This document shows positions 2,231 through 21,453 of a stretch of DNA of 37,152 bases, one piece after another; the stretch's first letter is position 1, and each line of letters begins with the position of its first letter. The stretch lies in the NCBI GenBank assembly GCA_014728245.1, contig WJLY01000009.1, forward strand, positions 1 through 37,152, given 5' to 3'. The DNA comes from Candidatus Effluviviaceae Genus IV sp. GTDB taxonomy: Bacteria > Joyebacterota > Joyebacteria > Joyebacterales > Joyebacteraceae. Position numbers and translations under genes: made by a program. Under the pieces are notes generated by a model that made no database searches, was not told where the DNA came from, and saw nothing but the letters and a program-made list of their open reading frames with translations.

Positions 2231-5098
2231 CTACTTCAGGAGGACCATCTTCTTGCTCATCTCCTTCTCGCCGGCGTTCAGGCGGTAGAAGTAGACGCCG
2301 CTGGCGACCCGCTCGCCTGAGTTGGAACGACCGTTCCACTCCACGCTGTGCGGACCGGCGGCCATGTGACCGTCGACCAGCGTGGCAACTCTCCGTCCGG
2401 CCACGTCGTAGATGCTGAGTTCGACGTCGCCCGCCGAGGCCAGGCTGAAGGCGATCCTGGTCTTCGGGTTGAACGGGTTCGGCGAGTTCTGATGCAGGCC
2501 GAGCTTCGCGCTCACGCCGTCAGGCACGTCGACCGGGTTGACAGCGATGTCCTCGTTGCCCCTCGGCTCGATCCTGTAGTCCCCGTAGGCGTAGGCCACG
2601 AGTCCCTTGACGTAGACGTTGTCGCCCTGCACCGGCACGTAGTCGTAGTCGGCGTAGTCGCTGACGCGGCAGGTGTCGGACGCAGCGCCGTTTGTGATCA
2701 TCCACTCTCCGTACCCGACGTCCGCGTCCTCGACCGTGCAGTCCTCGGCGTGCACGTAGACGCTCTCGTACTGCTCACCCGAGACCGTGTTCTGGAGGCT
2801 CGCCGTCGCTATCGATGTCGGCGATATGGCCTCGCTCCGCGGCGGCGTGGCGAGCTGGGCGCAATCGGAGAAGTGGAGGGCCAACTGCGTCTGACCGAAG
2901 TACTCCTGAACCTCGCCGCAGGCCACGATGTAGTCGCCGCGCGAGAAGGTCTTCGAGCCCGACCTGTCGTAGACCAGGATGCCGTTCCAGGCTCCGCTGG
3001 CGTCGGCGATGTAGAACTGGTAGTCGCCGAAGACGCCCGGCTCCGCCGTCACGTAGCCCTCGACGTTGACCGCCAGGGACTCCATGACCGAAGCATCCAG
3101 GTCAGGTCCGACCGCCTGGACGTTCGCGATGTCCTCGATGCCGACGTAGAAGCTGTAGGTCCCGGCGGAGGGCTTCCGCGCGTCCATCGTGGCGTCCTGG
3201 CACTCGACGTAGTAGTAGATGCGGTCCCCGTCGCTGAACGGACCGATCGACGCCGCCCAGGTCTCTTCGACCGCCCTTGTCACCTCGGACATCGCGGTGC
3301 CTGTGAAGGGACCGCTCGGGCTGAGCGACCAGTTGAGAGTCGCGGACGAGATGTCGACGTCGTCCTCGAAGACCGCGCTCACGGTCACGTTTCCGCCCGG
3401 CGCCGGCGGCACCGGCGAGTAGCGCACGTCGCCTACCCTCGGCGGACCGATGATGTCCTCGTCGTATCTGGGCTCGAGCTTGTACTCGTCGTAGCTGTAC
3501 ATCACGATGCCACGGATCTCGTCTATCGCATCCAGCACTTCCGGCTCGTAGGAGTAGTATGCGTAGTCATCGACGTCCGCGTCTACGCCGGAAGAGTCCT
3601 GAATGTGCCACTGGCCGTAGTTGTCAGGGATGAGCGTAACGGTCGCGTCGGTAACGCTCACGAGCTGACTCTCGTACCGCTCGGCGTTGGGCTCGGTCGG
3701 CGCGATGTCGGCCGTGGTCACCGAGGCGTAGCCGTAGTTCGGGTTCCCGGTCGAGTGGACGACCAGCGCCTCCCAGAAGTGCTGCACGATCTCGGTCTGA
3801 CCGTAGTACTCACTGACGGTCCCGCAGATCGTTATGTCGTCGCCCTCGTTGATCTCCCCGTAGTAGCCGGGGGCGTAGCACTGGATACCCTCGTAGAAGC
3901 CGTTCCCCTCGTGGATCCAGAAGCTCGAGTCGGAGAACTCGCCCTTGGCGGCGGTCACGATACCGCGCACGTTCACGGCCTGCCCCACCAGAGGCGACTC
4001 GTCGACGGCCGTCTGGATGTCCGCGATCGTCGTATAGCCGACCGAGAAAGCGTAGGGATCGGCCTGCCCCTCGGCGGGGTAGTTGATGCCGGCGGCCTGG
4101 TCGTCGACCGCGCGCACGTAGTACTCGACCTGTGCGCCGTCGTACAGGTCCGCCATCGGGATGGCCCCCGTGTAGAGCGAATCGGGCGTTGTCGCGAAGA
4201 CTCGCTGCCAGCCCGCACCGTCGACGTTGTAGTAGACCATCACCGAGTCGACGCCGCTGTCGTCCGTCACGACCGCCGAGATCTCGACGTCCGACGTCTC
4301 GACCGGAGGAATCGGGGAATACTGCGGCGAGCGGACCCATGGAGGCGTGTTCGTGGTGTTCATCGCGGCCGGAGTCGGAACCTGCATCGCCCAGTCGACG
4401 TCGCTGTTGTCGGTATCGGTGCCGGCGGAGTCGCGCCCCAGCGTGTTGCCGAGGTACGGAATCCCGGCGAACGCGTTGTCGTCGGCGCCGTCATCGCCCG
4501 TGCAGGGATCGGTCGTGCACTCGTCGGGGTTTACATACTCAACGAGGTCGACCAGCGTAATAAAGGTCGAGGACGTGTAGAGATAGACGACGTCCGCGTT
4601 GCTCGTGCCGCCGCACATTACGCCGTAGCCGTTGCCGCCGACCAGGCCTATCTCGTCACTGTAGTTGGTGGCCGGATCGTCGTTGACGATCGTCATGTTC
4701 GGAACCGCCGCATAGTCGTCGTCGTAGGCGAACGACGGGTCGAACAACTCGAAGTCGGGATCGAAGCCGAAGTTCTCGTAGAAGCCGTCGTCGCCGTCGT
4801 GCGCGTCCTTGGCGACCACGATGTAGCCGCCCGCGGGTATCTCCGTGCCGGCGGGGAAGGTCCAGACATCCTCGCCGCCGCAAAGCTCGTCGAACTCCGT
4901 GCCGGTGAGCGCCCATCCGGCGATGGGGATCGAGCTCGCCGTCGGGTTGTAGAGCTCTATGAACTCCGCCCCGTCGTAGTTGCCGGGCGGGTTCGCATAG
5001 ATCTCGTTTATGACCACGTTGTCCCCGGAAGGACTGGCCACCGCCGTCCCGAAAGCGACAATGAGGACGACCGCGGCGATGAACGGAATCCGGTTCAT
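2231..5098 (-). CDS. secreted modular protein (955 aa): signal peptide, LTD, two copies of an [Ig-like + paired OB-like barrel] module, FlgD-Ig/T9SS-type C-terminal domain
   Basis: ATG at 5096-5098 follows AAGGAGGGAG. Signal peptide is MNRIPFIAAVVLIVAFGTAVA. LTD motifs: VVINEIYANPPG, EFIELYNP, IAGWAL. The C-terminus LHQNSPNPFNPKTRIAFSL...LSIYDVAGRRVATL...WNGR...SGVYFYRL...KKMVLLK is a near-textbook Por_Secre_tail/FlgD_ig pattern. Confidence 0.9.
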   Translation of the reverse strand: MNRIPFIAAVVLIVAFGTAVASPSGDNVVINEIYANPPGNYDGAEFIELYNPTASSIPIAGWALTGTEFDELCGGEDVWTFPAGTEIPAGGYIVVAKDAHDGDDGFYENFGFDPDFELFDPSFAYDDDYAAVPNMTIVNDDPATNYSDEIGLVGGNGYGVMCGGTSNADVVYLYTSSTFITLVDLVEYVNPDECTTDPCTGDDGADDNAFAGIPYLGNTLGRDSAGTDTDNSDVDWAMQVPTPAAMNTTNTPPWVRSPQYSPIPPVETSDVEISAVVTDDSGVDSVMVYYNVDGAGWQRVFATTPDSLYTGAIPMADLYDGAQVEYYVRAVDDQAAGINYPAEGQADPYAFSVGYTTIADIQTAVDESPLVGQAVNVRGIVTAAKGEFSDSSFWIHEGNGFYEGIQCYAPGYYGEINEGDDITICGTVSEYYGQTEIVQHFWEALVVHSTGNPNYGYASVTTADIAPTEPNAERYESQLVSVTDATVTLIPDNYGQWHIQDSSGVDADVDDYAYYSYEPEVLDAIDEIRGIVMYSYDEYKLEPRYDEDIIGPPRVGDVRYSPVPPAPGGNVTVSAVFEDDVDISSATLNWSLSPSGPFTGTAMSEVTRAVEETWAASIGPFSDGDRIYYYVECQDATMDARKPSAGTYSFYVGIEDIANVQAVGPDLDASVMESLAVNVEGYVTAEPGVFGDYQFYIADASGAWNGILVYDRSGSKTFSRGDYIVACGEVQEYFGQTQLALHFSDCAQLATPPRSEAISPTSIATASLQNTVSGEQYESVYVHAEDCTVEDADVGYGEWMITNGAASDTCRVSDYADYDYVPVQGDNVYVKGLVAYAYGDYRIEPRGNEDIAVNPVDVPDGVSAKLGLHQNSPNPFNPKTRIAFSLASAGDVELSIYDVAGRRVATLVDGHMAAGPHSVEWNGRSNSGERVASGVYFYRLNAGEKEMSKKMVLLK

Positions 5099-5285
5099 GT
5101 GAACTCCCTCCTTGGCTGCTGCTCCTCTCGTGCCGTTACCCTTCTTCATGAACCCGTGTTGATCGTGCCTCCTGTGCCCCCCTTTGTCTATGAGTGCACT
5201 CCTCCGTTACGCAACCGGCTCTCGTAAGACCCGCTGCGGAGTCCGCGACGTCGTTGCGCAAGAGGGCATGTTTTCCAGCATTGCG

Positions 5286-5476: not shown

Positions 5477-7231
5477 CTACTGATACGGGCCTGCGGATTC
5501 GTCTCCCGGCGGCTTCAGGGGCTCCATGCCCTCCATCGCTTCCTTGAGCTCCGGCGACTTCTCGGCGGTGTCGTCTCTGACCCACCGCCCGTCCAGAACG
5601 CCCTTCACGGGCGAATGGCGCTCAATGTAGTGGATCACCGCGTCGCGCATCGTCGTAGACGAGCGCATCTTCTTGTCTTCCGGCACATTCGGTAGCATGT
5701 AGAGTCCCGCGTTGCCAGACGCCAGGAAGTCGCTCGTCACGACACGGTAGGTCTTGTCAGGCTGCCACTGCTCGCCGCCCACGGTGAATTGCGTGATCCG
5801 GTCGTAATCGGGCCGCGTCTTGTTGTAGACGATCTCCCCACCCGACATGTAGACACCGTGATGGTCCGCGCTCACGCGGTACTCGATGACTTCTTTAAGG
5901 AGCCGCCCGTCCATCTCGAAGACCATGATGCTGTTGCCGAACGGCAGAACCTTGAAGACGTCGCGGGGAGTGATGGGCCCCGCGGGGATCTGGTCGCGGA
6001 TTCCGCCGAGGTTCGTGAAGGCGAAGTCGGCCGACATCTCTTCCCGCATCGCGTCGCACACGAGGTTGCCCATCCGCGTCTCGCCCTCGCCGCCTCGCGT
6101 CAGGTCGTTGGCCGCCTGGCCGATCACGCGGTCCATGCCGGCCTCGGCCTCATCGACCATGGCGTTCACCATCTCCGCCGTTTCGGGATCCGGCCACCAC
6201 TCGTCCTCGAAAAGGGTAATCAGGTCCCCTCTGTAGCTCGGAAGCTCGTACCCGGCGAGCGACTTCGTGTCGGGATCGATCAGGAGCATGATGTGGCCGA
6301 CGCCGGAGCCCCGTCCGTATGTCTGGAAGCACATCGTGTGGTTGGTGGGGTCTATCCACGGCTCGTCGTAGCCCACGTGGATGTGCCCGCCGAAGAAGGC
6401 GTCGATGCCGGAGACCTCGTGGGTGATCTTCATCACGTTCGGCCCCCACTTGCTCTCCTCCAGAGGTTCCCGTACCTCTTCGGCCTCTCGCTCCTCTTCC
6501 TCCTCGATCATCTTCCAGTATGCTTCCTCGCGTTCGTAGGGCAGCCCCATGTGGCCGGAGACGAACACGATGTCGACGCCCTTCTCTCGCAGCTCCCGGA
6601 CATACTTCCTGGCCGTCTCGATCTCCGGGAGGAACTCGATGGGCTCGACGTGCTTGGGAAAGGCCATCTTCGGCGTGTCGGTCGTCGTGAGTCCGATGAT
6701 CCCGACCTTGACGCCTCCGAACTCCTTGATGAGGTAGGGTTCCACGAGCTCAACGGGCTCCCCGCTTTCGGCCCACACCAGGTTGGCGGAGAGAACCGGC
6801 ATCTCCGACATCTCGATCAGGTGCCAGAGGTTCTCGGCGCCCTCGTCGAACTCGTGGTTGCCGACCGTCCACAGGTCGACACCGACGTGGTTGAAGAACT
6901 CGACGACCGTCTCGCCGTCCTTGTAGTTCCCCACCGGCGTACCCTGGAAGATGTCGCCCTGGTCCATCACCAGAACGTAGTGGTTGTCGCTCTCTGCCGC
7001 CTCGTCGCGCACCCTCTCTATGTAGGTAGCCGCCGAAGCGCCCCCGCCCAGCGGCGGAGGGAACTCCCTATTCATGAAGGTCGCGCCGCTCGGGTCGATG
7101 CCGCCGTGGATGTCGTTGGTGAAGATCACGGACAGCCGAATGAGATCGCCGTCCGCCTCGGCCGCATGCGACCCGCCGGCCGCCACGAGAAGCGCCGCGG
7201 CGACCGCCAGTATCAGAATTCTGAGTCTCAT
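5477..7231 (-). CDS. secreted 5'-nucleotidase / 2',3'-cyclic phosphodiesterase family (UshA-like; calcineurin-like phosphoesterase + 5'-nucleotidase C-terminal domain)
   Basis: Metallophosphoesterase motifs: TNDIHGG, DQGDIFQG, GNHEFDEG, SGHMG, GGHIHVG. C-terminal substrate-domain motifs: FTNLGGIR, FKVLPFGNS. Preferred start is ATG 7229-7231 after GGGGGAAGAG, giving the signal peptide MRLRILILAVAAALLVAAGGSHA. The track start at 7252 is the alternative. Confidence 0.9.
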   Translation of the reverse strand: MRLRILILAVAAALLVAAGGSHAAEADGDLIRLSVIFTNDIHGGIDPSGATFMNREFPPPLGGGASAATYIERVRDEAAESDNHYVLVMDQGDIFQGTPVGNYKDGETVVEFFNHVGVDLWTVGNHEFDEGAENLWHLIEMSEMPVLSANLVWAESGEPVELVEPYLIKEFGGVKVGIIGLTTTDTPKMAFPKHVEPIEFLPEIETARKYVRELREKGVDIVFVSGHMGLPYEREEAYWKMIEEEEEREAEEVREPLEESKWGPNVMKITHEVSGIDAFFGGHIHVGYDEPWIDPTNHTMCFQTYGRGSGVGHIMLLIDPDTKSLAGYELPSYRGDLITLFEDEWWPDPETAEMVNAMVDEAEAGMDRVIGQAANDLTRGGEGETRMGNLVCDAMREEMSADFAFTNLGGIRDQIPAGPITPRDVFKVLPFGNSIMVFEMDGRLLKEVIEYRVSADHHGVYMSGGEIVYNKTRPDYDRITQFTVGGEQWQPDKTYRVVTSDFLASGNAGLYMLPNVPEDKKMRSSTTMRDAVIHYIERHSPVKGVLDGRWVRDDTAEKSPELKEAMEGMEPLKPPGDESAGPYQ

Positions 7232-7325
7232 CTCTTCCCCCTGTCTTCGCATCTGCCGCCGCGCTTGCCGGAGGCCGAGCCCGGGGGAGGCAACTCTCTG
7301 CCCCGGAAGACGGCAGTCCCTGTCG

Positions 7326-8564
7326 CTAGAACGAGTGGACCAGCGTCGCCATCGCCTGCGTCGTCGTCTCCTTGAGCGTGGCGTCGCCGACGTCGTACTC
7401 GCGCATCATGATCCGCCCGCCGACGTCCACCCTTGCGCCCAGAAGGTTCAGGCCGACTCCCGCGCAGAAACCCGTGCGGGCGACGGTGTTGTCGACGTAC
7501 GAAGGCTCGTAGATGAAGCCGAAGCGCGCCTGTGTGTCGTCGTAGTAACCGTGCTCGATTCCCACCCTGTAGACGACCGTGTCGTCCAGCTCCGGGTCCT
7601 CTTCAACGCTTCCGTCCTCGAACTCGGACCACCTCACGTACTCGACGTCGAATGAGACCGTGGTCATGATGAGATTCCGCGGATGGTACTCGAATCCGAC
7701 CGCGAAGGCGTCGGGATAGCCGTACGTGAAGCTCCCGGACGCGGTCGAATCGGGACCCGTGGCGCTCATCGAATAGTCGTCGACGTCCAGATCGAACGCG
7801 GAGCGGTAGACGAACGCTATGTCGACCCGGTGGAGCGTCTCCACCAGAAGGCCGGCCGTGAACTGCGTGCCCGAGACGTCGTCGTACTCCCACCGCGTCT
7901 CCGAATCCGACTCCTCGGAGTCCGGCGGGTAGACGTATCGCTCCCGGTCCTCGAAGTCGCCGCGGATAAAGTCGACGCCCAGTCCGAGGTGGACGTCCCT
8001 GTATACCTCCTGCCCCAGCGCTACCGTGAACGCGCTCACCGCGCCGTCGCCCTCGGCGTAGTAGTCGTAGAGGATCTTGTCGTTGGGCTCGGTCTGGCTG
8101 TCGGGATCCCGGTACTGGACATGGTACTTGTAGTTCATGTCCAGCCTGGGTCCGTAACCCACGCCTACCGTCGGCGCCCACGTGAGGTCGTCGGGCGGCG
8201 TATAGGCCACGTTCAGCATGTAGTGGTCGTAGAACCCGGTGTTCAGGGCGAACGTGTTCTCGGCGATGATGCCGTCGAAGCTGTCGTGGAGCGGCACGTC
8301 TCGAGACTCCTCAGCCGCCATTCCGAAAGCGGTGGCGGCCACCTGAAGCCCCTGGTTCTTTCCCAGAAGGGCCGGGTTCAGGCCGATGCCTCTCGCGCCG
8401 TCGGCCGACGCCATTCCGGCCCCGCCCATCGCCATCGACCTTCCGTCGATGGGAGGCAAGGGATCGCCGTACTGCTGCCAGCCGGTGTAGGTGTATGCGC
8501 CCGCCGAAGCGGCCGTAACCGCCACGCACAGGGCAGCCAGCGCCGCAGCTCGCACGTGCCGCAT
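7326..8564 (-). CDS. outer-membrane beta-barrel, FadL/PorV superfamily
   Basis: ATG at 8562-8564 follows AGGAGG at ideal spacing, giving the signal peptide MRHVRAAALAALCVAVTAASAGA. The N-terminal hatch-like motif GRSMAMGGAGMASADGARGIGLNPALLG resembles FadL/PorV families. Alternating amphipathic strands follow, with a terminal ...LVHSF (aromatic last residue). Confidence 0.7.
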   Translation of the reverse strand: MRHVRAAALAALCVAVTAASAGAYTYTGWQQYGDPLPPIDGRSMAMGGAGMASADGARGIGLNPALLGKNQGLQVAATAFGMAAEESRDVPLHDSFDGIIAENTFALNTGFYDHYMLNVAYTPPDDLTWAPTVGVGYGPRLDMNYKYHVQYRDPDSQTEPNDKILYDYYAEGDGAVSAFTVALGQEVYRDVHLGLGVDFIRGDFEDRERYVYPPDSEESDSETRWEYDDVSGTQFTAGLLVETLHRVDIAFVYRSAFDLDVDDYSMSATGPDSTASGSFTYGYPDAFAVGFEYHPRNLIMTTVSFDVEYVRWSEFEDGSVEEDPELDDTVVYRVGIEHGYYDDTQARFGFIYEPSYVDNTVARTGFCAGVGLNLLGARVDVGGRIMMREYDVGDATLKETTTQAMATLVHSF

Positions 8565-8632
8565 CTTTGGCCTCCTGTCTCTTCTCTTCACAGTTGTTTT
8601 GATGCGATTCATCGTCTCAGGACTCCCTGTTG

Positions 8633-11113
8633 CTACCAGGAATAGTCGACCTGCAGCCTGAATCCCGACCAGTCGTCACGCACGTAAGACCCGTCCGGCT
8701 CGGGATTTCCGGGCGGGTTCCAGTTGTACTCCCTGGCGTCCAGATACGTTATCGGATACTTGTGGTCGCTGGTCCAGCGGAGCCTCAGCGCGAGATTGTC
8801 CGAGATCCTGTCGGAGAGAGAGATCCACCAGCGGAACGCCTTGCCGTCCACGACGGTGAACTGCCCGTCCTCGAAGGTCCAATAGAAGCCGTCGTAGTAC
8901 CCGAACGCCCCGCTCATGGCCAGCCAGTCGCTGAAGTTGTGGGTCACTACTCCTAGAAGCGCATAGGAGGGGGATCCCGCCGAACCGATGTCCGGATGAC
9001 CTCCGTCCGCCTCGATGTTGTCGGACAGCCTGGGCCTCGGCGGCCACTTGATCCACGACCGAGACAGCATGAACTCCACGTTGTCGTACTTCGAGAGGCG
9101 GTACTCGAGGTTGAACCTGGTCTCCGTTTGCGTGTAGCTCATCGGCGAGATCCAGTTCGACTCGAGCCGGCCCTGCCACTTCTGCCTCAGGTTCATGACA
9201 ATGTTGTAGATCGGCTGGAACCTGAGCTTCAGCACCAGTCGCGAGTAGTCCGAACCGTCGGCCTTCCGCTCCCAGACGTCGTATTCGACCGACGGCGTGA
9301 GGCGGTGGGAGAAGCGGTACCGCGACTCCAGGAAGAGCCCGCGCTCCGGCTGAGGCGTCACCGAGTTCAGGTACAAAAGCCCGTAGATCGGGTCCGCCAG
9401 GTAGAAGTAGTCCTCGAGCACGGTGCCCTTGTAGCGCTTGTACTGCGAGAAGGCCCTCGAGTACGGGTTGTCGTAGTCGATGTCATAGTCACGGTAGATG
9501 GCCAGCAGGTTCAGGTTGCTGTAGGCCGCGTAGCCGTTCAACACGAAGGCGTTCGGGTCATCCCCGAACTCGAATATCTCGCCGTCGCTGTCGAGGCCGG
9601 CGTACTCCCCCGCGAACGAGTAGTTGTCGTGCACCCACTGGAACTCCGCGCCGTAGACCCTGCGGAACTTGCCGGGGCTCGTGTAGGTGCTGAAGTACTC
9701 GCCGTCCATGGCGACCAGATGATCCTCGTCCGCGTCGGGAACCATCCACGTGACGTCGATCGGTGTCGAGGGATCGTACGCAGCCTTGAAGTACTTGTTG
9801 TACCTGCTCTCGTAACCGGAGAGTCCCACCCAGGTCCCGGGTCCGAAGTTGTACTTGAGGTTGCCGCCGAAGGTCTGCTCGTGGAGCACGTCGCGCATCG
9901 GCCTTAGGCCCGCGCCCTTGAGATCGTCGTTCCGGATCCTCGGCGACATGATGATGTACTGATTGGCCGTGCCGTCGGGATTCAGGACCGCGTCCTTCCA
10001 GTCGTCGGAGTAGAAGAAGATGCCCTTCAGGGGACCCGCCGTCGCCTCGGCTGCTGCGCCCGAGAGCTGGAACTCCTGCGTCTGAGACAGGTCGCCGATG
10101 ATGCCTATGTAGCGGTGCTCCCATCCGAAGCCCGAGTTCCTTGGCTTGTAGAAGTCGGTGTTCTGCATCACGAGGCCCTGGCCCCAGGCCACGGCGTAGT
10201 TTCCCAGGATGATGTTGTCGAAGTGGACCGGCCCCGCCTTCTTGTCCTTGACGGTGGCGTGGAACTTGACCGCGTCCAGCTCTTCGTCCGCCCCCAGCCC
10301 GCGGTGGGCCAGCGCTCCCGCCCTTATGTCCTGACCCCACCTGAGCCTGAGCTTGTGCTGATAGGTGGGCGCATCGTTGCCCAGATCGAGGCGGTCCCAC
10401 CACGAGTCGTAGGCCTCGTCGGCTGGATTGCGGTCCTCACGGAGGCAGTCCTCAACGTCGAAGAGCGTCGAAGCGCTGCTGACCCTGTACTGGTAGCTTC
10501 CCCGAAGGTCGGCTGCCTCGCTCGGCTCCTCGTACCTGACGAAGTTTCTTGCGTTGTAGTACCCCCAGTAAGTGAGTCCGGGCACGTTGCGGAGCTGCGA
10601 ACGGTACTCGATCCTGTTCCTGCGAGTGTACCTGTAGATCGCAGCCGCATCGGACGGAGAGACGTTCTGCAGATTCGCAAGCTCCGTGTACGTGGCGGTG
10701 TTGACGTTGATCGGATCCTTCGCGAGGTCGATCCACTGGTCAACCAGAGCCTCGCTCGCGCCCTCCTCGGCCTCCCACCGGCGAATCCTGTAGTAGATCT
10801 CGTTGATCCGCTGGAGCTCCTCGTCCTCCACCGTCACCGGCACCACCTTGACCAGCGGCTTGAGCGTGTTCATCTCCTCCACGGAGATCTCGCCCAGCTC
10901 CCTGAGATCGTAGATGCTGTCGTAGTACCGGTGGTACTCCTTGTGCCACCAGATCGCGTAGGCGTCCTCGTCGGAGATCGGAAGCTCCTTGATCTCCTCG
11001 AGGCTGGCCGCGTTCAGGTCGAGCTTCTCGTCCCCATACGCTGTCGGGGCGGCAGCAAGGAGCCCCAGGAGTACAAGCATCCCCAGAAGCCCCGCGGCCG
11101 TTCTGTGTCTCAT
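8633..11113 (-). CDS. ComEA-like helix-hairpin-helix region fused to a large outer-membrane beta-barrel (826 aa)
   Basis: Trimmed from track ORF 8633..11458. ATG at 11111-11113 follows GGGAGGT, giving the signal peptide MRHRTAAGLLGMLVLLGLLAAAPTAYG. Two ComEA-type units are present: LDLNAASLEEIKELPISDEDAYAIW and INVNTATYTELANLQNVSPSDAAAIYRY. About 600 aa rich in Y/W/G/D/N alternating strands follow, ending ...RLQVDYSW. Confidence 0.8.
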   Translation of the reverse strand: MRHRTAAGLLGMLVLLGLLAAAPTAYGDEKLDLNAASLEEIKELPISDEDAYAIWWHKEYHRYYDSIYDLRELGEISVEEMNTLKPLVKVVPVTVEDEELQRINEIYYRIRRWEAEEGASEALVDQWIDLAKDPINVNTATYTELANLQNVSPSDAAAIYRYTRRNRIEYRSQLRNVPGLTYWGYYNARNFVRYEEPSEAADLRGSYQYRVSSASTLFDVEDCLREDRNPADEAYDSWWDRLDLGNDAPTYQHKLRLRWGQDIRAGALAHRGLGADEELDAVKFHATVKDKKAGPVHFDNIILGNYAVAWGQGLVMQNTDFYKPRNSGFGWEHRYIGIIGDLSQTQEFQLSGAAAEATAGPLKGIFFYSDDWKDAVLNPDGTANQYIIMSPRIRNDDLKGAGLRPMRDVLHEQTFGGNLKYNFGPGTWVGLSGYESRYNKYFKAAYDPSTPIDVTWMVPDADEDHLVAMDGEYFSTYTSPGKFRRVYGAEFQWVHDNYSFAGEYAGLDSDGEIFEFGDDPNAFVLNGYAAYSNLNLLAIYRDYDIDYDNPYSRAFSQYKRYKGTVLEDYFYLADPIYGLLYLNSVTPQPERGLFLESRYRFSHRLTPSVEYDVWERKADGSDYSRLVLKLRFQPIYNIVMNLRQKWQGRLESNWISPMSYTQTETRFNLEYRLSKYDNVEFMLSRSWIKWPPRPRLSDNIEADGGHPDIGSAGSPSYALLGVVTHNFSDWLAMSGAFGYYDGFYWTFEDGQFTVVDGKAFRWWISLSDRISDNLALRLRWTSDHKYPITYLDAREYNWNPPGNPEPDGSYVRDDWSGFRLQVDYSW

Positions 11114-11184: not shown

Positions 11185-12066
11185 CTAGAATGCGTAGCCC
11201 AGAGCGAAATGGTGCGAGCCCGGAAGCGTGGCGTGCGACGTATAGCTGTAGTCGACTCGAACGCCCTTCCAGTGCGTCCCGAAGCCGACCGACAGGCGGT
11301 CGGGCTGGTTCTGCAGTCCGCCACGCAGCGTTATGTAGTCGGTGACCTCCATCTCCAGCCCGAAGCAACTCCTCAGGTCCTCGTCGTCCTGCTTCTGCAT
11401 CTCGAGCACGGTGTTGACCCCGCCGTACGGGCTGTACGCGACTCCGGCCGTGAACCACTGCGGAAGGTCCTCGGCGTCGGGATCGCCCAGCTTCGGGTTG
11501 TTCAGGTTCTTCGCGAAGAACCCGAAGCTTGTCCGGCCGCGCAGCGTTCCGATCACGCCGACGTCGATCCCGAACGTGCTCGCTGAGCCAAGATCGTGAC
11601 CTCCCACGCTCTCCTCCTCGAAGGAGAGGCCGTAGAAGCTGAACGAGTAGCCCAGGGAGAGCGACGAGTGGATGTCCTCCATCACCGTGAAGCCGTGTCC
11701 GAGGGCGACCGAGTACTCGTTCTCCAGATCGACTCCCTCGTAGGACACGCTCAGGACCCTGGCGCCGAGGCCTATCGTGCCCTTGCCCGTGGGCATGGCG
11801 GCGGCGAATGAACCGAGGTCCAGAAACTCGTAGCCGTAGAGGTCGACGTAGGTCCCGTAGAACCCGAACTTATCCTGCTGCGCCAGGCCCGCGGGATTCG
11901 TGAAGATCGCGGTCTCGTCATCGGACACCGCGACGAATGCGCCGCCCATCGCGCGGGCTCTCGGCGACAGCACCAGGTTGTCGAACACACCCGCGGCGGC
12001 CGCCCACGACGGGACGAGAAGCGCCGCCAGTGCCGCAAGCGTGACTGCCAGTCTTGCTGTTCTCAC
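11185..12066 (-). CDS. PorV/PorQ-like outer-membrane beta-barrel (FadL/PorV superfamily)
   Basis: GTG at 12064-12066 follows AAGGAGG, giving the signal peptide (M)RTARLAVTLAALAALLVPSWAAAAG. The motif SPRARAMGGAFVAVSDDETAIFTNPAGLAQ matches my memory of the PorV-family N-terminus. The protein ends ...ALGYAF. Confidence 0.7.
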   Translation of the reverse strand: MRTARLAVTLAALAALLVPSWAAAAGVFDNLVLSPRARAMGGAFVAVSDDETAIFTNPAGLAQQDKFGFYGTYVDLYGYEFLDLGSFAAAMPTGKGTIGLGARVLSVSYEGVDLENEYSVALGHGFTVMEDIHSSLSLGYSFSFYGLSFEEESVGGHDLGSASTFGIDVGVIGTLRGRTSFGFFAKNLNNPKLGDPDAEDLPQWFTAGVAYSPYGGVNTVLEMQKQDDEDLRSCFGLEMEVTDYITLRGGLQNQPDRLSVGFGTHWKGVRVDYSYTSHATLPGSHHFALGYAF

Positions 12067-12121: not shown

Positions 12122-15100
12122 CTAGTTGAGTTTCGTCCCGACGACGATCGGAACCGCCGAGTCGGTTATCTTCTCTCCGTCACGTGCGTCCGCCTGGATG
12201 TGGCAGATGTACACGCCGACGGGTACCTTCTTTCCATTGTCGTCCCGTCCGTCCCAGCTCCGCCTGATGTCACCCATGCACTTCCCGTCGTAGACGGTCG
12301 CCACCGCGCGGCCCTTGAGATCGTAGATCCGTACCGCCACGTGGCTGCACCCGTTGGAGAAGAACCCTATGTCTATCGACTCGCCGGACGAGATGTCGAG
12401 GACCTTCGCGTCCACGTCGAGTCTGGCGGTCCCTTCTCCGGCGCTGCCCAGCTTGACGATGTCGCTGTCGTACCTCGGCGCCAGCTCGTACCCGTCGAGG
12501 TACGGCTCGGTGTAGTCGTACTGCAGGACGATGCCCGTGACGTCGAGGCTGTCGCCGAGCGCGTACTGGCTGAAGTCGAGGTCTGTGAAGTTCTGGTAGA
12601 CCTGGCAGGCGCCCGAGCCGTCGTCTATGTAGATCGCGAACCCCTCGACGCTTACGACGACACCGGACGTCCTGGCGAGCGTGCCCTCCAGCCGCTCGCT
12701 CCCCACGTCACCGGTCCTGAGCACCGACGGTTCTATCGCGTCGAACCCCCTGGCCAGAACGGTTATGAGGGCGTTGGATATCTCCGTGGTCGAGCCCTCC
12801 GGGGTCGCCCACGGATCGCTGCTGTCGACGCTCCGGTACTCCACGACGAGACCGGAGCAAAGGAGCAGGTCGCCGACCATCGCGGGATGCGGCATGAGTT
12901 CGGGCGAATAGACGTTGAGGCCCCAACCTTCGGTGTCCTCGATGAAGATGTTCGTTCTGTCAGGCTGGAACACGCCCGGCTCGACTACCGCGAACCCGAC
13001 CGTCGTCGCTTCCTGCCCCCACAACGGCGAGTATCCGTTCTCGTCCCAGTCCTGGATCTCCGAGAGCGGCGTCACGACCGAGGGCGAGCCGCTGAAGGTG
13101 CCGTCGTGGGGATCGATCAGGTTCCCGCCGGCGTCGGACACGCCGGTGACGGAGATGTCGTAGACCTGATCGGGCGTCTGCTCGCCGGTCTTGAGAAGCA
13201 CGGTCCTGGCGTCTCGCGTGAGCCACGCGCCGCCCACCGTGAGCCTCTCCGCCAGGCCCTCCTGAGCTGTGATCTCGTAATTGGCCTCGTCGACGGCGTC
13301 GTCCTCGTCGACCGGCTCGTTGAACTCGACGAGCACGAACGTGCTGCCCCCGGTGCCGACGGTGACGATCTCGGGGGCCTTCCCGTCCCCCAGCACGTTT
13401 GCCGTGCCCGGGGTCGGCCAGGAAGAAAGCACGAAGTCGTGCGCTGAGTCGTCGGTGTCATCCTCCGTGAGATCGCGGACCAGCGAGTAGTGCTCGGGCG
13501 GCACGCCGGGATACGCGTCGGACGCGCCACCGAGCCCCTCAGTGCCCGGGCAGTGGTCGCTCTGGAAGTGGACCGGATCCCGGTACTCCATCGCGTCGAC
13601 AAGCTGCGTCAGGGTTCTGTCGGAGTAGAGGTACACGGCCTCCGCTCCGGGCAGAAGCGCGGGCGAGAGCGCCCCGTTCCTGTCGAACCCGCCCAGCAGC
13701 CGGATCTCCTGGCTCGTCGTCACGTCCCCGTCCGAATCCGAAACCAGGACCATGTTGGGCACGTCGTCCCACGTAGCGTCACCCTGCCAGTCGCTGTCGT
13801 CGAAGTCGGAATCGACCATCTCGAAGAGCTTGATCGCGTTCACGTCGAGACTGTCGCCGAACACCTTGAGGAAGCCGTACGACCGGGGCCCGGCCTCCTT
13901 GTAGGCGTCCTTCGTCACCACCAGCCGCTCGCCGGGGGCCAGTCTGACGGGCGGGTCGGTGGGGAATTCCCAGATGTTCGATCCGCCGCACGCCCCCGAG
14001 TCGTCCAGGTCCGCGAGCGCCCAGCCGGACACGTCGACCGTGTCGTCGCCCGGGTTCGCCAGTTCGATGAACTCCGCCCGGTCCTTGGCGTCCTGGTCCT
14101 CGAGCGAGTGAGCGTATACCTCCGTTATGAGGACCGCGCCCGGATCAGCCAGGAAGCCCACGACCACCTCGGGCGACTCCTGGATCGCCGCGGGTTCTCC
14201 GGCGGCCGGCGCCGTCGCGAAGACGAACGTGAATCCGCCGGCGGCGTCCGGAGCGACGATGTTCTCGATCTCCAGCGTTCCGATGTCGTCGACGGTGAGC
14301 GCCGCGCCCGATACGGTAACGAGGTCCGCCGTCGTGCTGTCTTCGACGACCGCGGCGCCCGTGAAGCCGGCACCCGAGAGAGCGACGTCCGAGGCCTGGC
14401 CCGAGAAGTTCCACCCCTCCGGGATCTCGACCACGATGCGCGTCAGAACGTCTGCTTCTCCTCTGAGCGAGAACGCCAGGTCTACGGTCTGGTTGGCGAA
14501 GACGCGTTCGGTCTCCGCCTCGGCGAACCCGCTCCCCGGCCCGCGCGACAGAACATGCTCGCGCGACGGCGGAAGCATCCCGTGCCCTCTCCAGGACGAC
14601 ACGGTTCTCAGTCTCGGCACGACGACCCCGTAGACGTCGAACGTGTCGCCCGGGGCCGGCGAGCCGCACACGTCGGTGTCCGCGTCGAACCACAGCCTGC
14701 AGGACGTATCGGCGTCCGCGACGTAGGTTGCCTGGTCGACGGCGCATGGCTCGTCGGGCCATTGATGCGGGAGCGTGAGGTACACCCGCCTCATGACCGC
14801 GTACGTCCCCTCGTAATCCTCGCCCTCCGACGTTGCCAGCATGCGCGGCGTCACGACGGCCGGCGCGGGCGGAGCGTGCCCGGTCGACAGAACCGCGATC
14901 CCGGCCTCCGGAACCTGGGACGTGTCGACCTCGATGTAGGTCTTCCTGAGCGAACCCGAACTCAGGTCGTAGAGAACCTCCCCCGTCACCATCACGCTGT
15001 CGCCCCTGGCGACCGCGGGCGAGGCGGTCAGGGGCTGCACGACGTTCACGCCTCCCGTCGCGTCCTGAATGTAGACGTCGTTGTTGGAGGCCAGATACCC

Positions 15101-15268
15101 CGTGCCGATAGTGACCACTCCCCTGACGGTCACGACCTGCTCAAAGAGAACGGGGTAGCCGTTCTCGTCATCGGCATTGACCTCCGAGATGTCTATGACC
15201 TGTCCCAGCGCGACGGACGGGAGCAGGACAAGCAACATCCCTGTCGTCAGTGCAAGGCCAAGTTTCAT
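12122..15268 (-). CDS. secreted modular protein (1048 aa): paired OB-like barrels, Ig-like region, LTD, SbsA-Ig-like domain, second paired OB-like barrels, FlgD-Ig-type C-terminal domain
   Basis: Signal peptide is MKLGLALTTGMLLVLLPSVALG. LTD motifs lie at about aa 377-622: VLITEVYAHS, EFIELANPG, VSGWALADL. OB-like pattern: VTVRGVVT...VYIQDATGGVNV...GDSVMVTGEV and VGFAVVEPG...IFIEDTEGWGLNV...GYELAPRYDSDI. The C-terminus is RIYDLKGRAVATVYDG...WDGRDDNGKKVPVGVYICHI...VVGTKLN. Confidence 0.9.
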   Translation of the reverse strand: MKLGLALTTGMLLVLLPSVALGQVIDISEVNADDENGYPVLFEQVVTVRGVVTIGTGYLASNNDVYIQDATGGVNVVQPLTASPAVARGDSVMVTGEVLYDLSSGSLRKTYIEVDTSQVPEAGIAVLSTGHAPPAPAVVTPRMLATSEGEDYEGTYAVMRRVYLTLPHQWPDEPCAVDQATYVADADTSCRLWFDADTDVCGSPAPGDTFDVYGVVVPRLRTVSSWRGHGMLPPSREHVLSRGPGSGFAEAETERVFANQTVDLAFSLRGEADVLTRIVVEIPEGWNFSGQASDVALSGAGFTGAAVVEDSTTADLVTVSGAALTVDDIGTLEIENIVAPDAAGGFTFVFATAPAAGEPAAIQESPEVVVGFLADPGAVLITEVYAHSLEDQDAKDRAEFIELANPGDDTVDVSGWALADLDDSGACGGSNIWEFPTDPPVRLAPGERLVVTKDAYKEAGPRSYGFLKVFGDSLDVNAIKLFEMVDSDFDDSDWQGDATWDDVPNMVLVSDSDGDVTTSQEIRLLGGFDRNGALSPALLPGAEAVYLYSDRTLTQLVDAMEYRDPVHFQSDHCPGTEGLGGASDAYPGVPPEHYSLVRDLTEDDTDDSAHDFVLSSWPTPGTANVLGDGKAPEIVTVGTGGSTFVLVEFNEPVDEDDAVDEANYEITAQEGLAERLTVGGAWLTRDARTVLLKTGEQTPDQVYDISVTGVSDAGGNLIDPHDGTFSGSPSVVTPLSEIQDWDENGYSPLWGQEATTVGFAVVEPGVFQPDRTNIFIEDTEGWGLNVYSPELMPHPAMVGDLLLCSGLVVEYRSVDSSDPWATPEGSTTEISNALITVLARGFDAIEPSVLRTGDVGSERLEGTLARTSGVVVSVEGFAIYIDDGSGACQVYQNFTDLDFSQYALGDSLDVTGIVLQYDYTEPYLDGYELAPRYDSDIVKLGSAGEGTARLDVDAKVLDISSGESIDIGFFSNGCSHVAVRIYDLKGRAVATVYDGKCMGDIRRSWDGRDDNGKKVPVGVYICHIQADARDGEKITDSAVPIVVGTKLN

Positions 15269-17726: not shown

Positions 17727-17802
17727 CGTGTTACCTCCGTCGAACTCCCCTACGGCCCGTCCCTGCGCGGCCAACGCGGCCGCGCCGGCGGAAGACGCCT
17801 GA

Positions 17803-17893
17803 CTCTTCATGCCCGACCTTGCCGGGTTGGCGTCTAGCTTTTCATGCCCGACCTTGCCGGGTTGACGTCTAGCTCTTCATGCCCGACGTTGCC
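17803..17893. repeat. 35-bp tandem repeat, about 2.6 units, copying the 3' end and stop codon of the MalG-like gene
   Basis: Unit 1 (17803-17837): ctcttcatgcccgaccttgccgggttggcgtctag. Unit 2 (17838-17872): cttttcatgcccgaccttgccgggttgacgtctag. Partial unit 3 (17873-17893): ctcttcatgcccgacgttgcc, which encodes the real C-terminus ...ATSGMKS. Confidence 0.9.
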
Positions 17894-19002: not shown

Positions 19003-19038
19003 GACGGCGGCCCGCCGGGGCCGACTAGCGGGACGCTC

Positions 19039-21376: not shown

Positions 21377-21453
21377 TCGGCACTCCTGTTTCTGTTGTCC
21401 CTGGTGCTGCGAAAGCCCGCGGCGGCGTCCCGCGGGCCCGCGTGGGTAGGAAG

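What the first reader, a model, noticed from the sequence alone, without database searches (positions are those of the whole stretch)
8633..11113. ComEA-type DNA-binding helix-hairpin-helix units fused to a ~600-aa outer-membrane beta-barrel
Seen in sequence:
- After a signal peptide come two HhH units: LDLNAASLEEIKELPISDEDAYAIWWHKE...IYDLRELGEISVEEMNTLKPLV (aa ~30-90) and INVNTATYTELANLQNVSPSDAAAIYRY...LRNVPGL (aa ~135-180). Together they span nt ~10529-11026.
- The rest of the protein has beta-barrel composition (e.g. LGNYAVAWGQGLVMQN) and ends DYSW.
Established knowledge: ComEA-like HhH domains bind dsDNA without sequence specificity and act in the periplasm or at the cell surface during DNA uptake.
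Inference: a barrel of this size carrying its own DNA-binding module could be an outer-membrane DNA receptor or conduit. That would be an alternative to the secretin/pilus route, either for uptake or for presenting DNA to hydrolases. I recall large proteins annotated only as helix-hairpin-helix domain-containing proteins in FCB-group bacteria, but no functional characterisation.
Basis: partly seen in the sequence, partly recalled or inferred. Interest (0 to 1): 0.75.

Follow-up and report, generated by a model that had tools for sequence, protein, structure and literature searches.

The report
ComEA-like outer-membrane barrel, DNA-scavenging operon
This gene encodes an uncharacterised outer-membrane barrel with two competence-protein-like (ComEA-type) domains at its periplasmic end, and it sits in a gene cluster, conserved across many uncultured bacterial phyla, that looks built to capture, import and digest environmental DNA.

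Summary
Window 8633-11113 (-) encodes an 826-aa protein: a signal peptide, two ComEA-type HHH_3 units joined by an acidic helical linker, then a barrel of about 24 strands ending in an aromatic residue. The barrel matches no Pfam, NCBIfam or PDB sequence family, and its predicted fold matches only generic large barrels.

Context is the strongest evidence. In 83 related loci from at least ten FCB-group lineages, all MAGs, a PorV/PorQ-like barrel lies directly upstream in 73/73. It is preceded by a surface protein with OB-fold/LTD domains and a T9SS-type C-terminal domain. A FadL-like barrel follows in 59/72 and a 5'-nucleotidase in 54/60. A protein with a ComEC-type MBL domain recurs in 26/83. 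The window continues into nucleoside ABC transport and purine catabolism.

Best reading: this is the outer-membrane core of a nucleic-acid scavenging system, with no TonB-dependent-transporter domains. It is analogous to Bacteroidales DdbCD but built differently.

- By the usual barrel topology rule, the HhH module is periplasmic, not a surface receptor.
- The lysine essential for DNA binding in Vibrio cholerae ComEA is an invariant aspartate here.
- DNA passage and DNA binding are inferred, not shown.

Verdict: uncharacterised family, new variant of a known kind, interest about 0.7.

The parts
11033..11113 (-). Signal peptide (aa 1-27, MRHRTAAGLLGMLVLLGLLAAAPTAYG, no lipobox Cys)
   Evidence: Read from the translation. 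The AF2 model shows helix 2-21 followed by a low-confidence segment at 21-27.
10838..11026 (-). HhH unit 1 (aa 30-92), a ComEA-type HHH_3 fold with a degenerate first hairpin (LPISDEDA) and acidic net charge
   Evidence: HHH_3 at 21 bits, E 3.6e-4, when scanned alone. The family profile matches ComEA 8dss at 6.5e-9 and EEPD1 at 4e-17. Net charge is -7 in this protein, family mean -2.8. Four helices with pLDDT 81-89.
10718..10837 (-). Acidic helical linker (aa 93-132) carrying the conserved E117-G118-x-x-E121 motif
   Evidence: Helices 98-105, 107-115 and 121-132. Family mean charge -5.2. Nearly invariant E117, G118, E121, D125 and D129.
10529..10717 (-). HhH unit 2 (aa 133-195), HHH_3 above threshold; family signature NVN...LQNVSPxDA...PGL(S/T)YWGYxNxRxFVRY with invariant D155
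   Evidence: Pfam HHH_3 E 3.3e-12. ComEA TIGR models match below their cut-offs. Aligns to B. subtilis ComEA with K to D155. Mean charge +1.6. The Asp is kept in most of the distant members inspected.
8636..10507 (-). Outer-membrane beta-barrel of about 24 strands (aa 203-826), with the C-terminal signature FRLQVDYSW
   Evidence: AF2 DSSP shows 24 long strands with short turns on the side of the termini. Foldseek matches SlpA, MtrB, FimD/PapC ushers, TonB-dependent transporters and LptD; the highest target-normalised TM-score in the list is 0.47, to the FimD translocation domain, with PapC at 0.43. No Pfam family matches even at E<=10. The lipid-facing parity is rich in Y/F/W; the lumen-facing parity is net positive, +4 to +17 across 43 sequences.
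10067..10186 (-). Most conserved long loop, L3 (aa 310-349, WGQGLVMQNTD...GDLSQT); candidate in-barrel constriction or gate
   Evidence: Mean column conservation 0.70 against 0.57 for strands. Invariant G311, G313, R325, G328, G337 and D341. It was selected as the family pattern [QL]GLVM[DEQ][NA][TS]D.
9347..9484 (-). Second conserved long loop, L7 (aa 544-589) with the YDNPYxRxFS motif
   Evidence: Conservation 0.63. It was selected as the family pattern [FY]DNPYxR[AGS]F[SA].
11185..12066 (-). PorV/PorQ-family small barrel (293 aa), the invariant upstream partner
   Evidence: NCBIfam PorV_fam E 5e-22, covering model positions 11-326 of 326, 78.9 bits against a cut-off of 90. It lies directly upstream in 73/73 loci with room. 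It is also present in the Fermentibacteraceae and WOR-3 loci.
12122..15268 (-). Surface protein (1048 aa) with LTD and an FlgD_ig/T9SS-type C-terminal domain; its positional counterparts in other loci carry OB folds
   Evidence: Pfam LTD 1.2e-10 and FlgD_ig 4.3e-6. Among 26 such proteins: LTD in 15, OB-fold in 13 (best E 4.6e-13), FlgD_ig in 13, DUF5689 in 4.
15299..16399 (-). Second surface protein (366 aa): weak, sub-threshold OB-fold and FlgD_ig/T9SS C-terminal-domain matches
   Evidence: OB-fold 23.2 bits and FlgD_ig 19.1 bits, both below the cut-off of 27. Syntenic in most Eisenbacteria and Gemmatimonadota loci.
7326..8612 (-). FadL/Toluene_X-like barrel (428 aa) directly downstream
   Evidence: Pfam Toluene_X 30.1 bits against a cut-off of 29.7. 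Weak BamG and PorV_fam matches. Directly downstream in 59/72 loci.
5477..7252 (-). UshA-like 5'-nucleotidase with a non-lipoprotein signal peptide (predicted periplasmic)
   Evidence: Pfam 5_nucleotid_C 7e-37 and Metallophos. NCBIfam UshA 3e-59. Within 6 kb downstream in 54/60 loci.
2231..5149 (-). LTD + weak OB/DUF5689 + ExeM/NucH N-terminal region + T9SS type-A C-terminal-domain protein (972 aa); no EEP nuclease domain detected
   Evidence: Own promoter-like site at 5314-5286 and a strong terminator at 2207-2179.
20102..21466 (-). Protein with a ComEC/Rec2-type metallo-beta-lactamase domain and an N-terminal Cys-containing hydrophobic stretch (possible lipoprotein); candidate periplasmic nuclease
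   Evidence: TIGR00361 ComEC_Rec2 E 1.9e-21, model positions 439-633. Sequence. Homologue present in 26/83 loci; in six Krumholzibacteriia, Fibrobacteraceae and related loci it lies at coordinates between the FadL-like gene and the 5'-nucleotidase, or directly after the FadL-like gene.
16434..20013 (-). Family-1 solute-binding protein (UgpB-like, below threshold) plus two ABC permeases, immediately upstream of the cassette
   Evidence: The permeases are syntenic in 31-33 of 83 loci.

Best explanation
The protein is the outer-membrane core of a conserved nucleic-acid scavenging apparatus of FCB-group bacteria that shows no TonB-dependent-transporter domains.

**Shown**
- It is a signal-peptide protein with two ComEA-type (HhH)2 units followed by a barrel of about 24 strands.
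- It is always encoded directly after a PorV/PorQ-family barrel. That barrel follows a surface protein with OB-fold/LTD domains and a T9SS-type C-terminal domain.
- It is usually followed by a FadL-like barrel and a UshA-like 5'-nucleotidase with a signal peptide.
- A protein with a ComEC-type MBL domain recurs in the cassette.
- In this window the cluster continues into Bmp/PnrA-type ABC transport and purine catabolism.

**Inferred**
1. The PorV-like barrel holds the OB-fold/LTD protein at the cell surface through its C-terminal domain.
2. That protein captures extracellular DNA or RNA.
3. The nucleic acid, whole or as oligonucleotides, enters the periplasm through the 24-strand barrel. The strand residues assigned to the lumen are net basic.
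4. The tandem HhH module sits about 10 residues before strand 1, at the periplasmic mouth. It engages the incoming chain or docks the degrading enzymes.
5. The MBL nuclease and the 5'-nucleotidase convert the chain to nucleosides and phosphate for ABC import and purine catabolism.
6. Periplasmic binding and degradation may supply directionality. No TonB-dependent-transporter domain was detected in the protein, and no pilus genes were noted in this window.
For: - **Architecture:**
- **ComEA-type fold of both units:** (ComEA 8dss at 6.5e-9, 2duy at 1.4e-5, EEPD1 tandem HhH at 4e-17; rmsd 1.5-1.7 A to ComEA).
- **The fusion is family-wide:** HHH_3 is found in 9 of the 10 divergent barrel homologues scanned and in eight further members, including WOR-3, Caldipriscus and Fermentibacteraceae.
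- **Synteny across lineages:** PorV-like 73/73, FadL-like 59/72, 5'-nucleotidase 54/60. The three-gene core persists in the Fermentibacteraceae and WOR-3 loci.
- **Neighbouring surface proteins:** OB-fold in 13/26 (best 4.6e-13), LTD in 15/26, DUF5689 in 4/26, FlgD_ig C-terminal domain in 13/26.
- **ComEC-type MBL protein:** in the window and in 26/83 loci.
- **Downstream metabolism in the window:** Bmp/PnrA ABC system, adenine deaminase, xanthine dehydrogenase subunit, XdhC, YqeB, carbamate kinase.
- **Basic lumen-facing strand residues** in all 43 family members.
- **Experimental precedent:** Bacteroidales ddbABCDEF pairs an outer-membrane transporter with a DUF5689 surface DNA binder and nucleases. 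The related Riemerella transformation genes include a separate periplasmic HhH protein (PMC12478041, PMC8459023).
Against: - **No experiment.** Every member found comes from a MAG or metagenome.
- **Key ComEA residues replaced.** The V. cholerae ComEA K62/K63 pair corresponds to S154/D155 in unit 2 and E49/D50 in unit 1. D155 is invariant, and K63E abolishes ComEA function.
- **First hairpins lack G-x-G.**
- **Acidic module.** Unit 1 plus the linker are strongly acidic, about -13 in this protein.
- **Acidic long loops**.
- **Pore state unknown.** I could not inspect model coordinates, so whether the pore is open, plugged by loops L3/L7, or plugged by the N-terminal module is not known.
- **No recognised nuclease catalytic domain** was found in the surface proteins.
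- **The FadL-like barrel** could be the real import channel for small products.
- **The lumen-charge estimate** rests on a crude strand-parity rule.
Confidence: 0.5

Rival explanations
1. Export or anchoring platform. The barrel, with its PorV-like partner, is a small usher-like or SprA-like translocon or attachment site that exports or holds the neighbouring multi-domain surface protein. The degenerate HhH module is a periplasmic protein-interaction domain, as in GspK or PsbU. Nucleic acids never pass through the barrel. Degradation products enter through the FadL-like barrel or general porins.
For: - A PorV/PorQ-family partner lies directly upstream in 73/73 loci, always preceded by a protein with a C-terminal sorting-type domain. 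This resembles the SprA-PorV and PorQ-PorZ logic (my own knowledge of T9SS).
- The highest target-normalised TM-scores are to the 24-strand usher barrels FimD (0.47) and PapC (0.43), which pass folded Ig-like domains.
- The neighbouring proteins are strings of small beta-sandwich domains.
- The DNA-binding lysines of ComEA are replaced by acidic residues.
Against: - No Usher, secretin or SprA family signal.
- No chaperone gene nearby.
- At least one locus protein carries a canonical T9SS type-A C-terminal domain (TIGR04183 above cut-off). This implies a general T9SS already exports such proteins.
- An HhH module retained across the deepest divergences is hard to explain for a protein exporter.
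- The tight link to a 5'-nucleotidase with a signal peptide (54/60) needs an import route.
Confidence: 0.2
2. Natural-transformation uptake channel. The same machinery imports long DNA for recombination through ComEC/DprA rather than for food. This would be a pilus- and secretin-independent competence route.
For: - ComEA-type and ComEC-type modules occur in one cassette.
- The related Bacteroidota DdbC/DdbD-like proteins are essential for transformation in Riemerella, together with a periplasmic HhH protein (PMC8459023; PMC12478041).
- One locus (L002) lies beside PilM and PilT-like genes.
Against: - The conserved partners are catabolic: a 5'-nucleotidase in 54/60 loci, and purine catabolism and nucleoside ABC import in the window.
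- The MBL protein is a stand-alone domain with an N-terminal signal-like sequence, not a ComEC channel.
- No dprA, comEC channel or comF gene was seen in the window.
Confidence: 0.12
3. Small-solute channel. The barrel is a substrate-specific porin for nucleotides, phosphate or short phosphodiesters released outside the cell. The N-terminal module acts as a periplasmic plug or regulator and does not bind DNA.
For: - Net basic lumen-facing residues with many conserved Arg/Lys. This resembles anion-selective porins (my own knowledge of OprP).
- An acidic N-terminal module could occlude a basic pore.
- A 5'-nucleotidase with a signal peptide acts on mononucleotides.
Against: - A 24-strand barrel is far larger than known small-solute channels.
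- A dedicated FadL-like barrel is already present in most loci.
- Conserved surface OB-fold proteins suggest polymer handling.
Confidence: 0.13

Closest known systems
DdbC/DdbD of the Bacteroidales DNA-utilization locus ddbABCDEF, and the homologous Riemerella anatipestifer transformation proteins RA0C_RS04915/04920 (PMC12478041, PMC8459023)
   Same: - An outer-membrane barrel is encoded next to a surface protein predicted to bind nucleic acid: DUF5689 there; OB-fold, LTD and occasionally DUF5689 here.
- Both are clustered with nucleic-acid-degrading enzymes.
- The logic resembles a polysaccharide-utilisation locus (PUL).
- Riemerella also needs a periplasmic HhH protein.
   Different: - DdbC is annotated as a TonB-dependent transporter. 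No TonB-dependent-transporter family (plug or barrel domain) is detected here, and about 24 strands are predicted.
- The HhH module is fused to the barrel instead of being a separate protein.
- The surface partner carries a T9SS-type C-terminal domain and is paired with a PorV-like barrel, rather than being a lipoprotein.
- Found in non-Bacteroidota FCB lineages.
ComEA (periplasmic or membrane-anchored competence DNA receptor; PDB 8dss, 8dfk, 2duy)
   Same: HHH_3 (HhH)2 fold by profile (E 6.5e-9 to 1.4e-5) and by predicted geometry (rmsd 1.5-1.7 A). A periplasmic location is predicted.
   Different: - Two units in tandem, fused to an outer-membrane barrel.
- Fails the curated ComEA models: 30 bits against 152, and 24.7 against 53.
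- The first hairpins lack G-x-G.
- The essential lysine is an invariant Asp.
- The module is acidic overall.
EEPD1 (human; tandem HhH units plus an EEP nuclease-fold domain; PDB 9yi2)
   Same: Best sequence-profile match to the N-terminal module (E 4.3e-17, two stretches). It also has two ComEA-like HhH units in tandem with non-canonical hairpins.
   Different: Eukaryotic soluble protein with an EEP domain and no barrel. The similarity is limited to the HhH units.
Chaperone-usher ushers FimD/PapC (24-strand barrels)
   Same: Highest target-normalised TM-scores in the Foldseek list (0.43-0.47), and the same apparent strand number.
   Different: No Usher Pfam signal, no plug or N-/C-terminal usher domains, no chaperone or pilin genes. 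TM-scores are low, so only the general barrel class is shared.
T9SS SprA-PorV and PorQ-PorZ pairs
   Same: A PorV/PorQ-family barrel is obligatorily paired with a larger barrel and with a protein carrying a T9SS-type C-terminal domain.
   Different: SprA is a 36-strand protein of more than 2000 aa without HhH units (my own knowledge). The PorV-like protein here is 293 aa and falls just below the PorV_fam cut-off (78.9 against 90 bits).

Membership tests
Outer-membrane beta-barrel protein (generic) | N-terminal signal peptide; an even number of amphipathic transmembrane strands with short periplasmic turns; an aromatic girdle; a C-terminal aromatic beta-signal | tested here: met
   - Signal peptide and C-terminal ...FRLQVDYSW.
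- 24 long strands with 2-6-residue turns on the side of the termini.
- Foldseek probability 1.00 to many outer-membrane barrels.
- The lipid-facing parity holds 18 Y, 18 F and 8 W.
ComEA | HHH_3 / (HhH)2 DNA-binding fold | tested here: met
   Pfam HHH_3 at 46.8 bits. Profile against ComEA structures at E 6.5e-9. Rmsd 1.5-1.7 A to 2duy and 8dss.
ComEA | Scores above the curated ComEA family models (TIGR01259, TIGR00426) | tested here: not met
   30.0 bits against a cut-off of 152.35, and 24.7 against 53.1.
ComEA | G-I-G first hairpin followed by the basic pair needed for DNA binding (V. cholerae G60, K62, K63; K63E is inactive, PMC3879209) | tested here: not met
   - Unit 2 reads N150-V-S152-P-S154-D155-A, with D155 invariant.
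- Unit 1 reads LPISDEDA; the family consensus is LPIxxExA.
- The Asp is kept in most of the distant members inspected.
ComEA | Binds dsDNA without sequence specificity | not testable with these tools
   Needs EMSA or similar. Composition argues both ways: unit 2 is mildly basic (+1.6 on average), while unit 1 and the linker are acidic.
TonB-dependent transporter (including DdbC) | N-terminal plug domain and a TonB-dependent-receptor barrel detectable by Pfam-A | tested here: not met
   A full Pfam-A scan returned only HHH_3 for the whole protein. It returned nothing for the barrel alone, even at E<=10. About 24 strands are predicted. A TonB-box motif was not searched for separately.
DNA-utilization locus (Ddb-like, functional class) | An outer-membrane transporter gene adjacent to a surface nucleic-acid-binding partner and clustered with nucleic-acid hydrolases | tested here: met
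   An OB-fold/LTD/DUF5689 neighbour; a 5'-nucleotidase in 54/60 loci; a ComEC-type MBL in 26/83 loci. This is a match of organisation, not homology of the transporter.
DNA-utilization locus (Ddb-like, functional class) | The locus is required for depletion or use of exogenous DNA | not testable with these tools
   No isolate or experiment is available. All sources are MAGs or metagenomes.
Chaperone-usher usher | Usher family domains (barrel with a mid-barrel plug, N- and C-terminal periplasmic domains) and adjacent chaperone and pilin genes | tested here: not met
   No Usher Pfam hit. The neighbours are PorV-like, FadL-like and a nucleotidase. Only low TM-scores of 0.43-0.47.
Secretin (PilQ-type DNA entry pore) | Secretin domain and N-domains; a multimeric pore | tested here: not met
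   No secretin family hit in Pfam or NCBIfam. The model is a monomeric barrel.

The most novel reading that the evidence does not exclude
The three-gene core forms a self-contained outer-membrane translocon for polymeric DNA that needs neither a type IV pilus and secretin nor TonB. Its parts are an OB-fold surface protein anchored by its C-terminal domain, a PorV-like barrel, and the HhH-barrel. DNA captured at the surface is threaded through the 24-strand barrel. Directionality comes from the barrel's own periplasmic tandem HhH module and a ComEC-type nuclease. This would be a third, previously unrecognised route for DNA across a Gram-negative outer membrane, widespread in uncultured FCB phyla.
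Probability: 0.3. Interest if true: 0.85.

Novelty: new variant of a known kind. Interest (0 to 1): 0.7.

Why it matters
Extracellular DNA is a major pool of phosphorus, nitrogen and carbon in sediments, soils and sludge. How it crosses the outer membrane is understood mainly for pilus/secretin competence systems. Since 2025 it has also been described for the TonB-dependent Ddb transporters of Bacteroidales.

If the reading here is right, it would give a concrete gene-level marker for DNA scavenging in many uncultured FCB lineages: Eisenbacteria, Gemmatimonadota, Zixibacteria, Fibrobacterota, Latescibacterota, KSB1, Krumholzibacteriia, Ignavibacteria, WOR-3 and Fermentibacteria.

It would also show competence-type modules, a ComEA-type HhH and a ComEC-type MBL, placed in a catabolic outer-membrane and periplasmic machine. 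And it offers a compact single-chain barrel that can be tested for nucleic-acid translocation in vitro.

If the export rival is right instead, the finding would be a new PorV-partnered platform for surface display of proteins carrying the C-terminal sorting domain.

Tried and rejected
- **Barrel family searches.** Pfam and NCBIfam on the barrel alone gave no family, even at E<=10.
- **PDB by sequence.** The whole protein gave only a marginal ComEA hit, E 0.23.
- **Foldseek on the full model.** Only generic barrels with TM <= 0.47, so no informative structural relative.
- **Rfam and tRNA scans of the window.** Nothing found, so no riboswitch clue to a ligand.
- **Literature.** Searches for an HhH or ComEA-like domain fused to an outer-membrane barrel, and for Eisenbacteria with nucleases, found no description of this family.
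- **Second homologue search.** A profile of distant members found no isolate genome and did not extend the family.
- **A true nuclease domain in the LTD/OB surface proteins.** Only the N-terminal part of the ExeM/NucH model matches, with no EEP domain. The idea that they are ExeM/Xds-type nucleases was dropped.
- **The longer GTG ORF (to 11458).** Rejected because it overlaps the upstream gene and homologues start at the ATG.
- **Position of the N-terminal module.** A co-variation analysis was considered and not attempted, because too few diverse sequences were in hand.

Full report
**1. The observation**

Window 8633-11113 (-) is a clean 826-codon ORF.

A longer GTG-initiated ORF reaches 11458 but runs into the upstream gene. 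Homologues are about 826 aa and align from residue 1, so the ATG at 11113 is the start. The N-terminus is a signal peptide without a lipobox cysteine. The C-terminus (FRLQVDYSW) has the alternating hydrophobic pattern and terminal aromatic residue of outer-membrane barrel proteins.

**2. Domain anatomy**

- Pfam finds one HHH_3 domain above threshold (aa 133-193, E 3.3e-12).
- The first unit (aa 30-92) scores 21 bits when scanned alone.
- A profile of the N-terminal 173 residues from 22 family members matches ComEA structures: 8dss at 6.5e-9, 8dfk at 2.5e-7, 2duy at 1.4e-5. It matches the tandem HhH units of EEPD1 best, at 4.3e-17. GspK and PsbU are not significant.
- An AlphaFold2 model of this module (pLDDT 84) superimposes on ComEA at 1.5-1.7 A over 59-64 columns. 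PsbU comes next at about 3.5 A.

So both units are ComEA-type (HhH)2 folds, joined by a conserved acidic helical linker.

The full-length model (pLDDT 82, pTM 0.80) then shows 24 long strands from aa 203 to 825. The turns on the side of the termini are 2-6 residues, and most loops on the other side are long. Foldseek against the PDB returns only large outer-membrane barrels: SlpA, MtrB, FimD/PapC, TonB-dependent transporters and LptD. The highest target-normalised TM-scores, 0.43-0.47, are to the 24-strand usher barrels.

The barrel has no Pfam or NCBIfam family and no PDB sequence relative.

**3. Orientation**

The HhH module ends about 10 residues before strand 1. With an even strand number and the short-turn/long-loop asymmetry, the usual topology rule places both termini, and therefore the HhH module, in the periplasm. 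This is inference from established knowledge of barrel topology.

Two relatives carry an extra N-terminal TPR domain ahead of the HhH units (P0153 and P0198). This is typical of periplasmic extensions of outer-membrane barrels.

**4. Is the module a DNA binder?**

The fold says yes, but the key residues say "not in the ComEA way". In V. cholerae ComEA, DNA binding needs the G-I-G hairpin and the K62/K63 pair, and K63E abolishes function (PMC3879209).

- In unit 2 the aligned positions read N150-V-S152-P-S154-D155-A. D155 is invariant across the family and is kept in most of the distant members inspected.
- Unit 1 reads LPISDEDA; the family consensus is LPIxxExA.
- Mean net charge is -2.8 for unit 1, -5.2 for the linker and +1.6 for unit 2.
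- HHH_3 is retained in 9 of the 10 divergent barrel homologues scanned, so the module is under selection.

Its ligand could be DNA bound differently, possibly through a metal. It could instead be a partner protein, or the pore itself. This point is open.

**5. The barrel**

A strand-parity analysis was run on the family alignment. It assigns an aromatic-rich lipid face and a lumen face that is net positive in all 43 sequences (mean +9.9, range +4 to +17). Twelve Lys/Arg positions on that face are conserved. The long loops are acidic.

The two most conserved loops are L3 (aa 310-349, GQGLVMQNTD...) and L7 (aa 544-589, YDNPYxRxFS). They are candidates for an in-barrel constriction or gate. The parity rule is crude, so this is suggestive only.

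**6. Genomic context: the decisive evidence**

In the window, all the following genes are on the minus strand with short gaps:

| Coordinates | Product |
|---|---|
| 16434-20013 | family-1 solute-binding protein plus two permeases |
| 15299-16399 | protein with weak OB-fold and C-terminal-domain matches |
| 12122-15268 | LTD + C-terminal-domain protein |
| 11185-12066 | PorV/PorQ-family barrel (E 5e-22, full model length) |
| 8633-11113 | the HhH-barrel |
| 7326-8612 | FadL/Toluene_X-like barrel |
| 5477-7252 | UshA-like 5'-nucleotidase with signal peptide |
| 2231-5149 | LTD + OB/DUF5689 + NucH-like + T9SS type-A C-terminal-domain protein |

Beyond the permeases, at higher window coordinates, lie:
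- a protein with a ComEC/Rec2-type MBL domain (20102-21466; E 1.9e-21);
- a Bmp/PnrA-type ABC system;
- adenine deaminase;
- carbamate kinase;
- two carbamoyltransferases;
- a xanthine-dehydrogenase subunit;
- YqeB and XdhC.

A scan of one genome per GTDB species found relatives in 505 genomes. The 80 best are all MAGs. They come from Eisenbacteria, Zixibacteria, Gemmatimonadota, Ignavibacteria, KSB1, Krumholzibacteriia, Latescibacterota and Fibrobacteraceae. Cluster names add WOR-3, Fermentibacteraceae and Caldipriscus.

Across 83 loci:
- the PorV-like gene is directly upstream in 73/73 with room;
- the FadL-like gene is directly downstream in 59/72;
- a 5'-nucleotidase lies within 6 kb in 54/60;
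- the MBL gene is present in 26/83; in six Krumholzibacteriia, Fibrobacteraceae and related loci its coordinates fall between the FadL-like gene and the nucleotidase, or directly after the FadL-like gene.

The gene upstream of the PorV-like barrel is a variable multi-domain protein. Among 26 examples, LTD occurs in 15, OB-fold in 13 (best 4.6e-13), an FlgD_ig-type C-terminal domain in 13, and DUF5689 in 4.

The three-gene core is surface protein, PorV-like barrel, HhH-barrel. It persists even in minimal loci and in the deep Fermentibacteraceae and WOR-3 loci.

**7. Comparison with what is known**

DUF5689 led to two papers.

- In Riemerella anatipestifer, natural transformation requires three proteins. 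They are a DUF5689 surface protein, an adjacent outer-membrane barrel, and a separate periplasmic HhH protein (PMC8459023).
- In Bacteroides thetaiotaomicron, the homologous pair DdbC (annotated as a TonB-dependent transporter subunit) and DdbD (DUF5689, predicted DNA binder) lies in ddbABCDEF with three nucleases. The locus is required for depletion of exogenous DNA (PMC12478041).

The present cassette has the same logic with different parts:
- a barrel with no detectable TonB-dependent-transporter domains and about 24 strands;
- the HhH module fused to it;
- a surface partner apparently tethered through a T9SS-type C-terminal domain and a PorV-like barrel;
- a FadL-like barrel;
- a 5'-nucleotidase;
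- a ComEC-type MBL protein.

I found no paper describing this barrel family. Databases call it only "HhH domain-containing" or "ComE-like DNA-binding protein".

**8. Mechanism and rivals**

- **Best-supported (confidence about 0.5):** the barrel is the outer-membrane import component of a nucleic-acid scavenging system. The periplasmic HhH module receives the chain or docks the degrading enzymes.
- **Export or anchoring platform (about 0.2):** an usher-like or SprA-like platform for the neighbouring C-terminal-domain protein.
- **Small-solute channel (about 0.13):** a channel for small anionic products, with the N-terminal module acting as a plug.
- **Transformation (about 0.12):** the same import machine serving recombination rather than catabolism.

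The invariant Asp at the ComEA lysine position and the acidic module are the main facts that the favoured model does not explain.

**9. Verdict**

It needs correction on orientation, on canonical DNA binding and on the likely purpose.

This is an uncharacterised, widely distributed protein family in a strongly conserved operon. It is a new variant of the recently recognised class of DNA-utilization outer-membrane systems. Interest is 0.7.

Noticed in passing
window 20102-21466 (-): A stand-alone ComEC/Rec2-type metallo-beta-lactamase domain protein (454 aa) with an N-terminal hydrophobic stretch ending ...LCVCGCSDSE (possible lipoprotein signal). It amounts to a detached ComEC 'nuclease' domain. 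Homologues recur in 26/83 related loci.
   Followed up: partly
window 21541-28081 (-): A MurJ (lipid II flippase) gene at 22547-24253 sits between the two BPD_transp_2 permease genes of a Bmp/PnrA-type ABC transporter (permeases 21541-22443 and 24250-25353, ATPase 25350-26981, binding protein 27029-28081).
   Followed up: no
window 29312-37094 (-): A purine-catabolism cluster: adenine deaminase, carbamate kinase, two carbamoyltransferases with overlapping ORF calls (32072-33364 and 33094-34140), a xanthine-dehydrogenase FAD subunit, YqeB (selenium-dependent molybdenum cofactor maturation) and XdhC. This suggests selenium-dependent purine hydroxylase chemistry downstream of DNA scavenging.
   Followed up: partly
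window 16434-20013 (-): A family-1 solute-binding protein (UgpB-like, well below cut-off) with two permeases but no adjacent ATPase. The permeases are syntenic with the cassette in 31-33 of 83 loci. The substrate is unknown; candidates are phosphodiesters, deoxyribose derivatives or oligonucleotides.
   Followed up: partly
window 2179-2207 (-) and 5286-5314 (-): A strong terminator-like hairpin (13-bp stem, 12 G-C pairs) lies right after the 2231-5149 gene. The only sigma-70-like site in 1000-20500 (11 of 12 matches, TG-extended) lies just upstream of that gene. This suggests it is transcribed separately from the main cassette.
   Followed up: no
L059, L070, L072 (contigs of one Fibrobacteraceae MAG, CAYMCR01): One genome carries three paralogous copies of the cassette, each with its own surface protein and PorV-like barrel. 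This resembles the multiplication seen for polysaccharide-utilisation loci.
   Followed up: no
P0153 (1251 aa) and P0198 (668 aa): These variants of the family carry an additional N-terminal TPR domain ahead of the HhH unit or units.
   Followed up: partly
L085 3365-4534 (WOR-3 locus): A NamZ (DUF1343) gene lies just upstream, on the opposite strand, of the WOR-3 three-gene core. A DUF1343 protein was one of the four genes essential for transformation in Riemerella (PMC8459023). This may be coincidence.
   Followed up: no
L002 1-4527: Type IV pilus-like genes (PilM, a PilT/T2SSE-type ATPase and DUF4900) lie a few kb upstream, on the opposite strand, of a minimal cassette that lacks the FadL-like and nucleotidase genes.
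   Followed up: no
window 1133-1927 (-): A small (264 aa) protein consisting essentially of a lamin-tail domain (E 7.6e-18). It is syntenic at the distal end of the cassette in 16 loci. Function unknown.
   Followed up: partly
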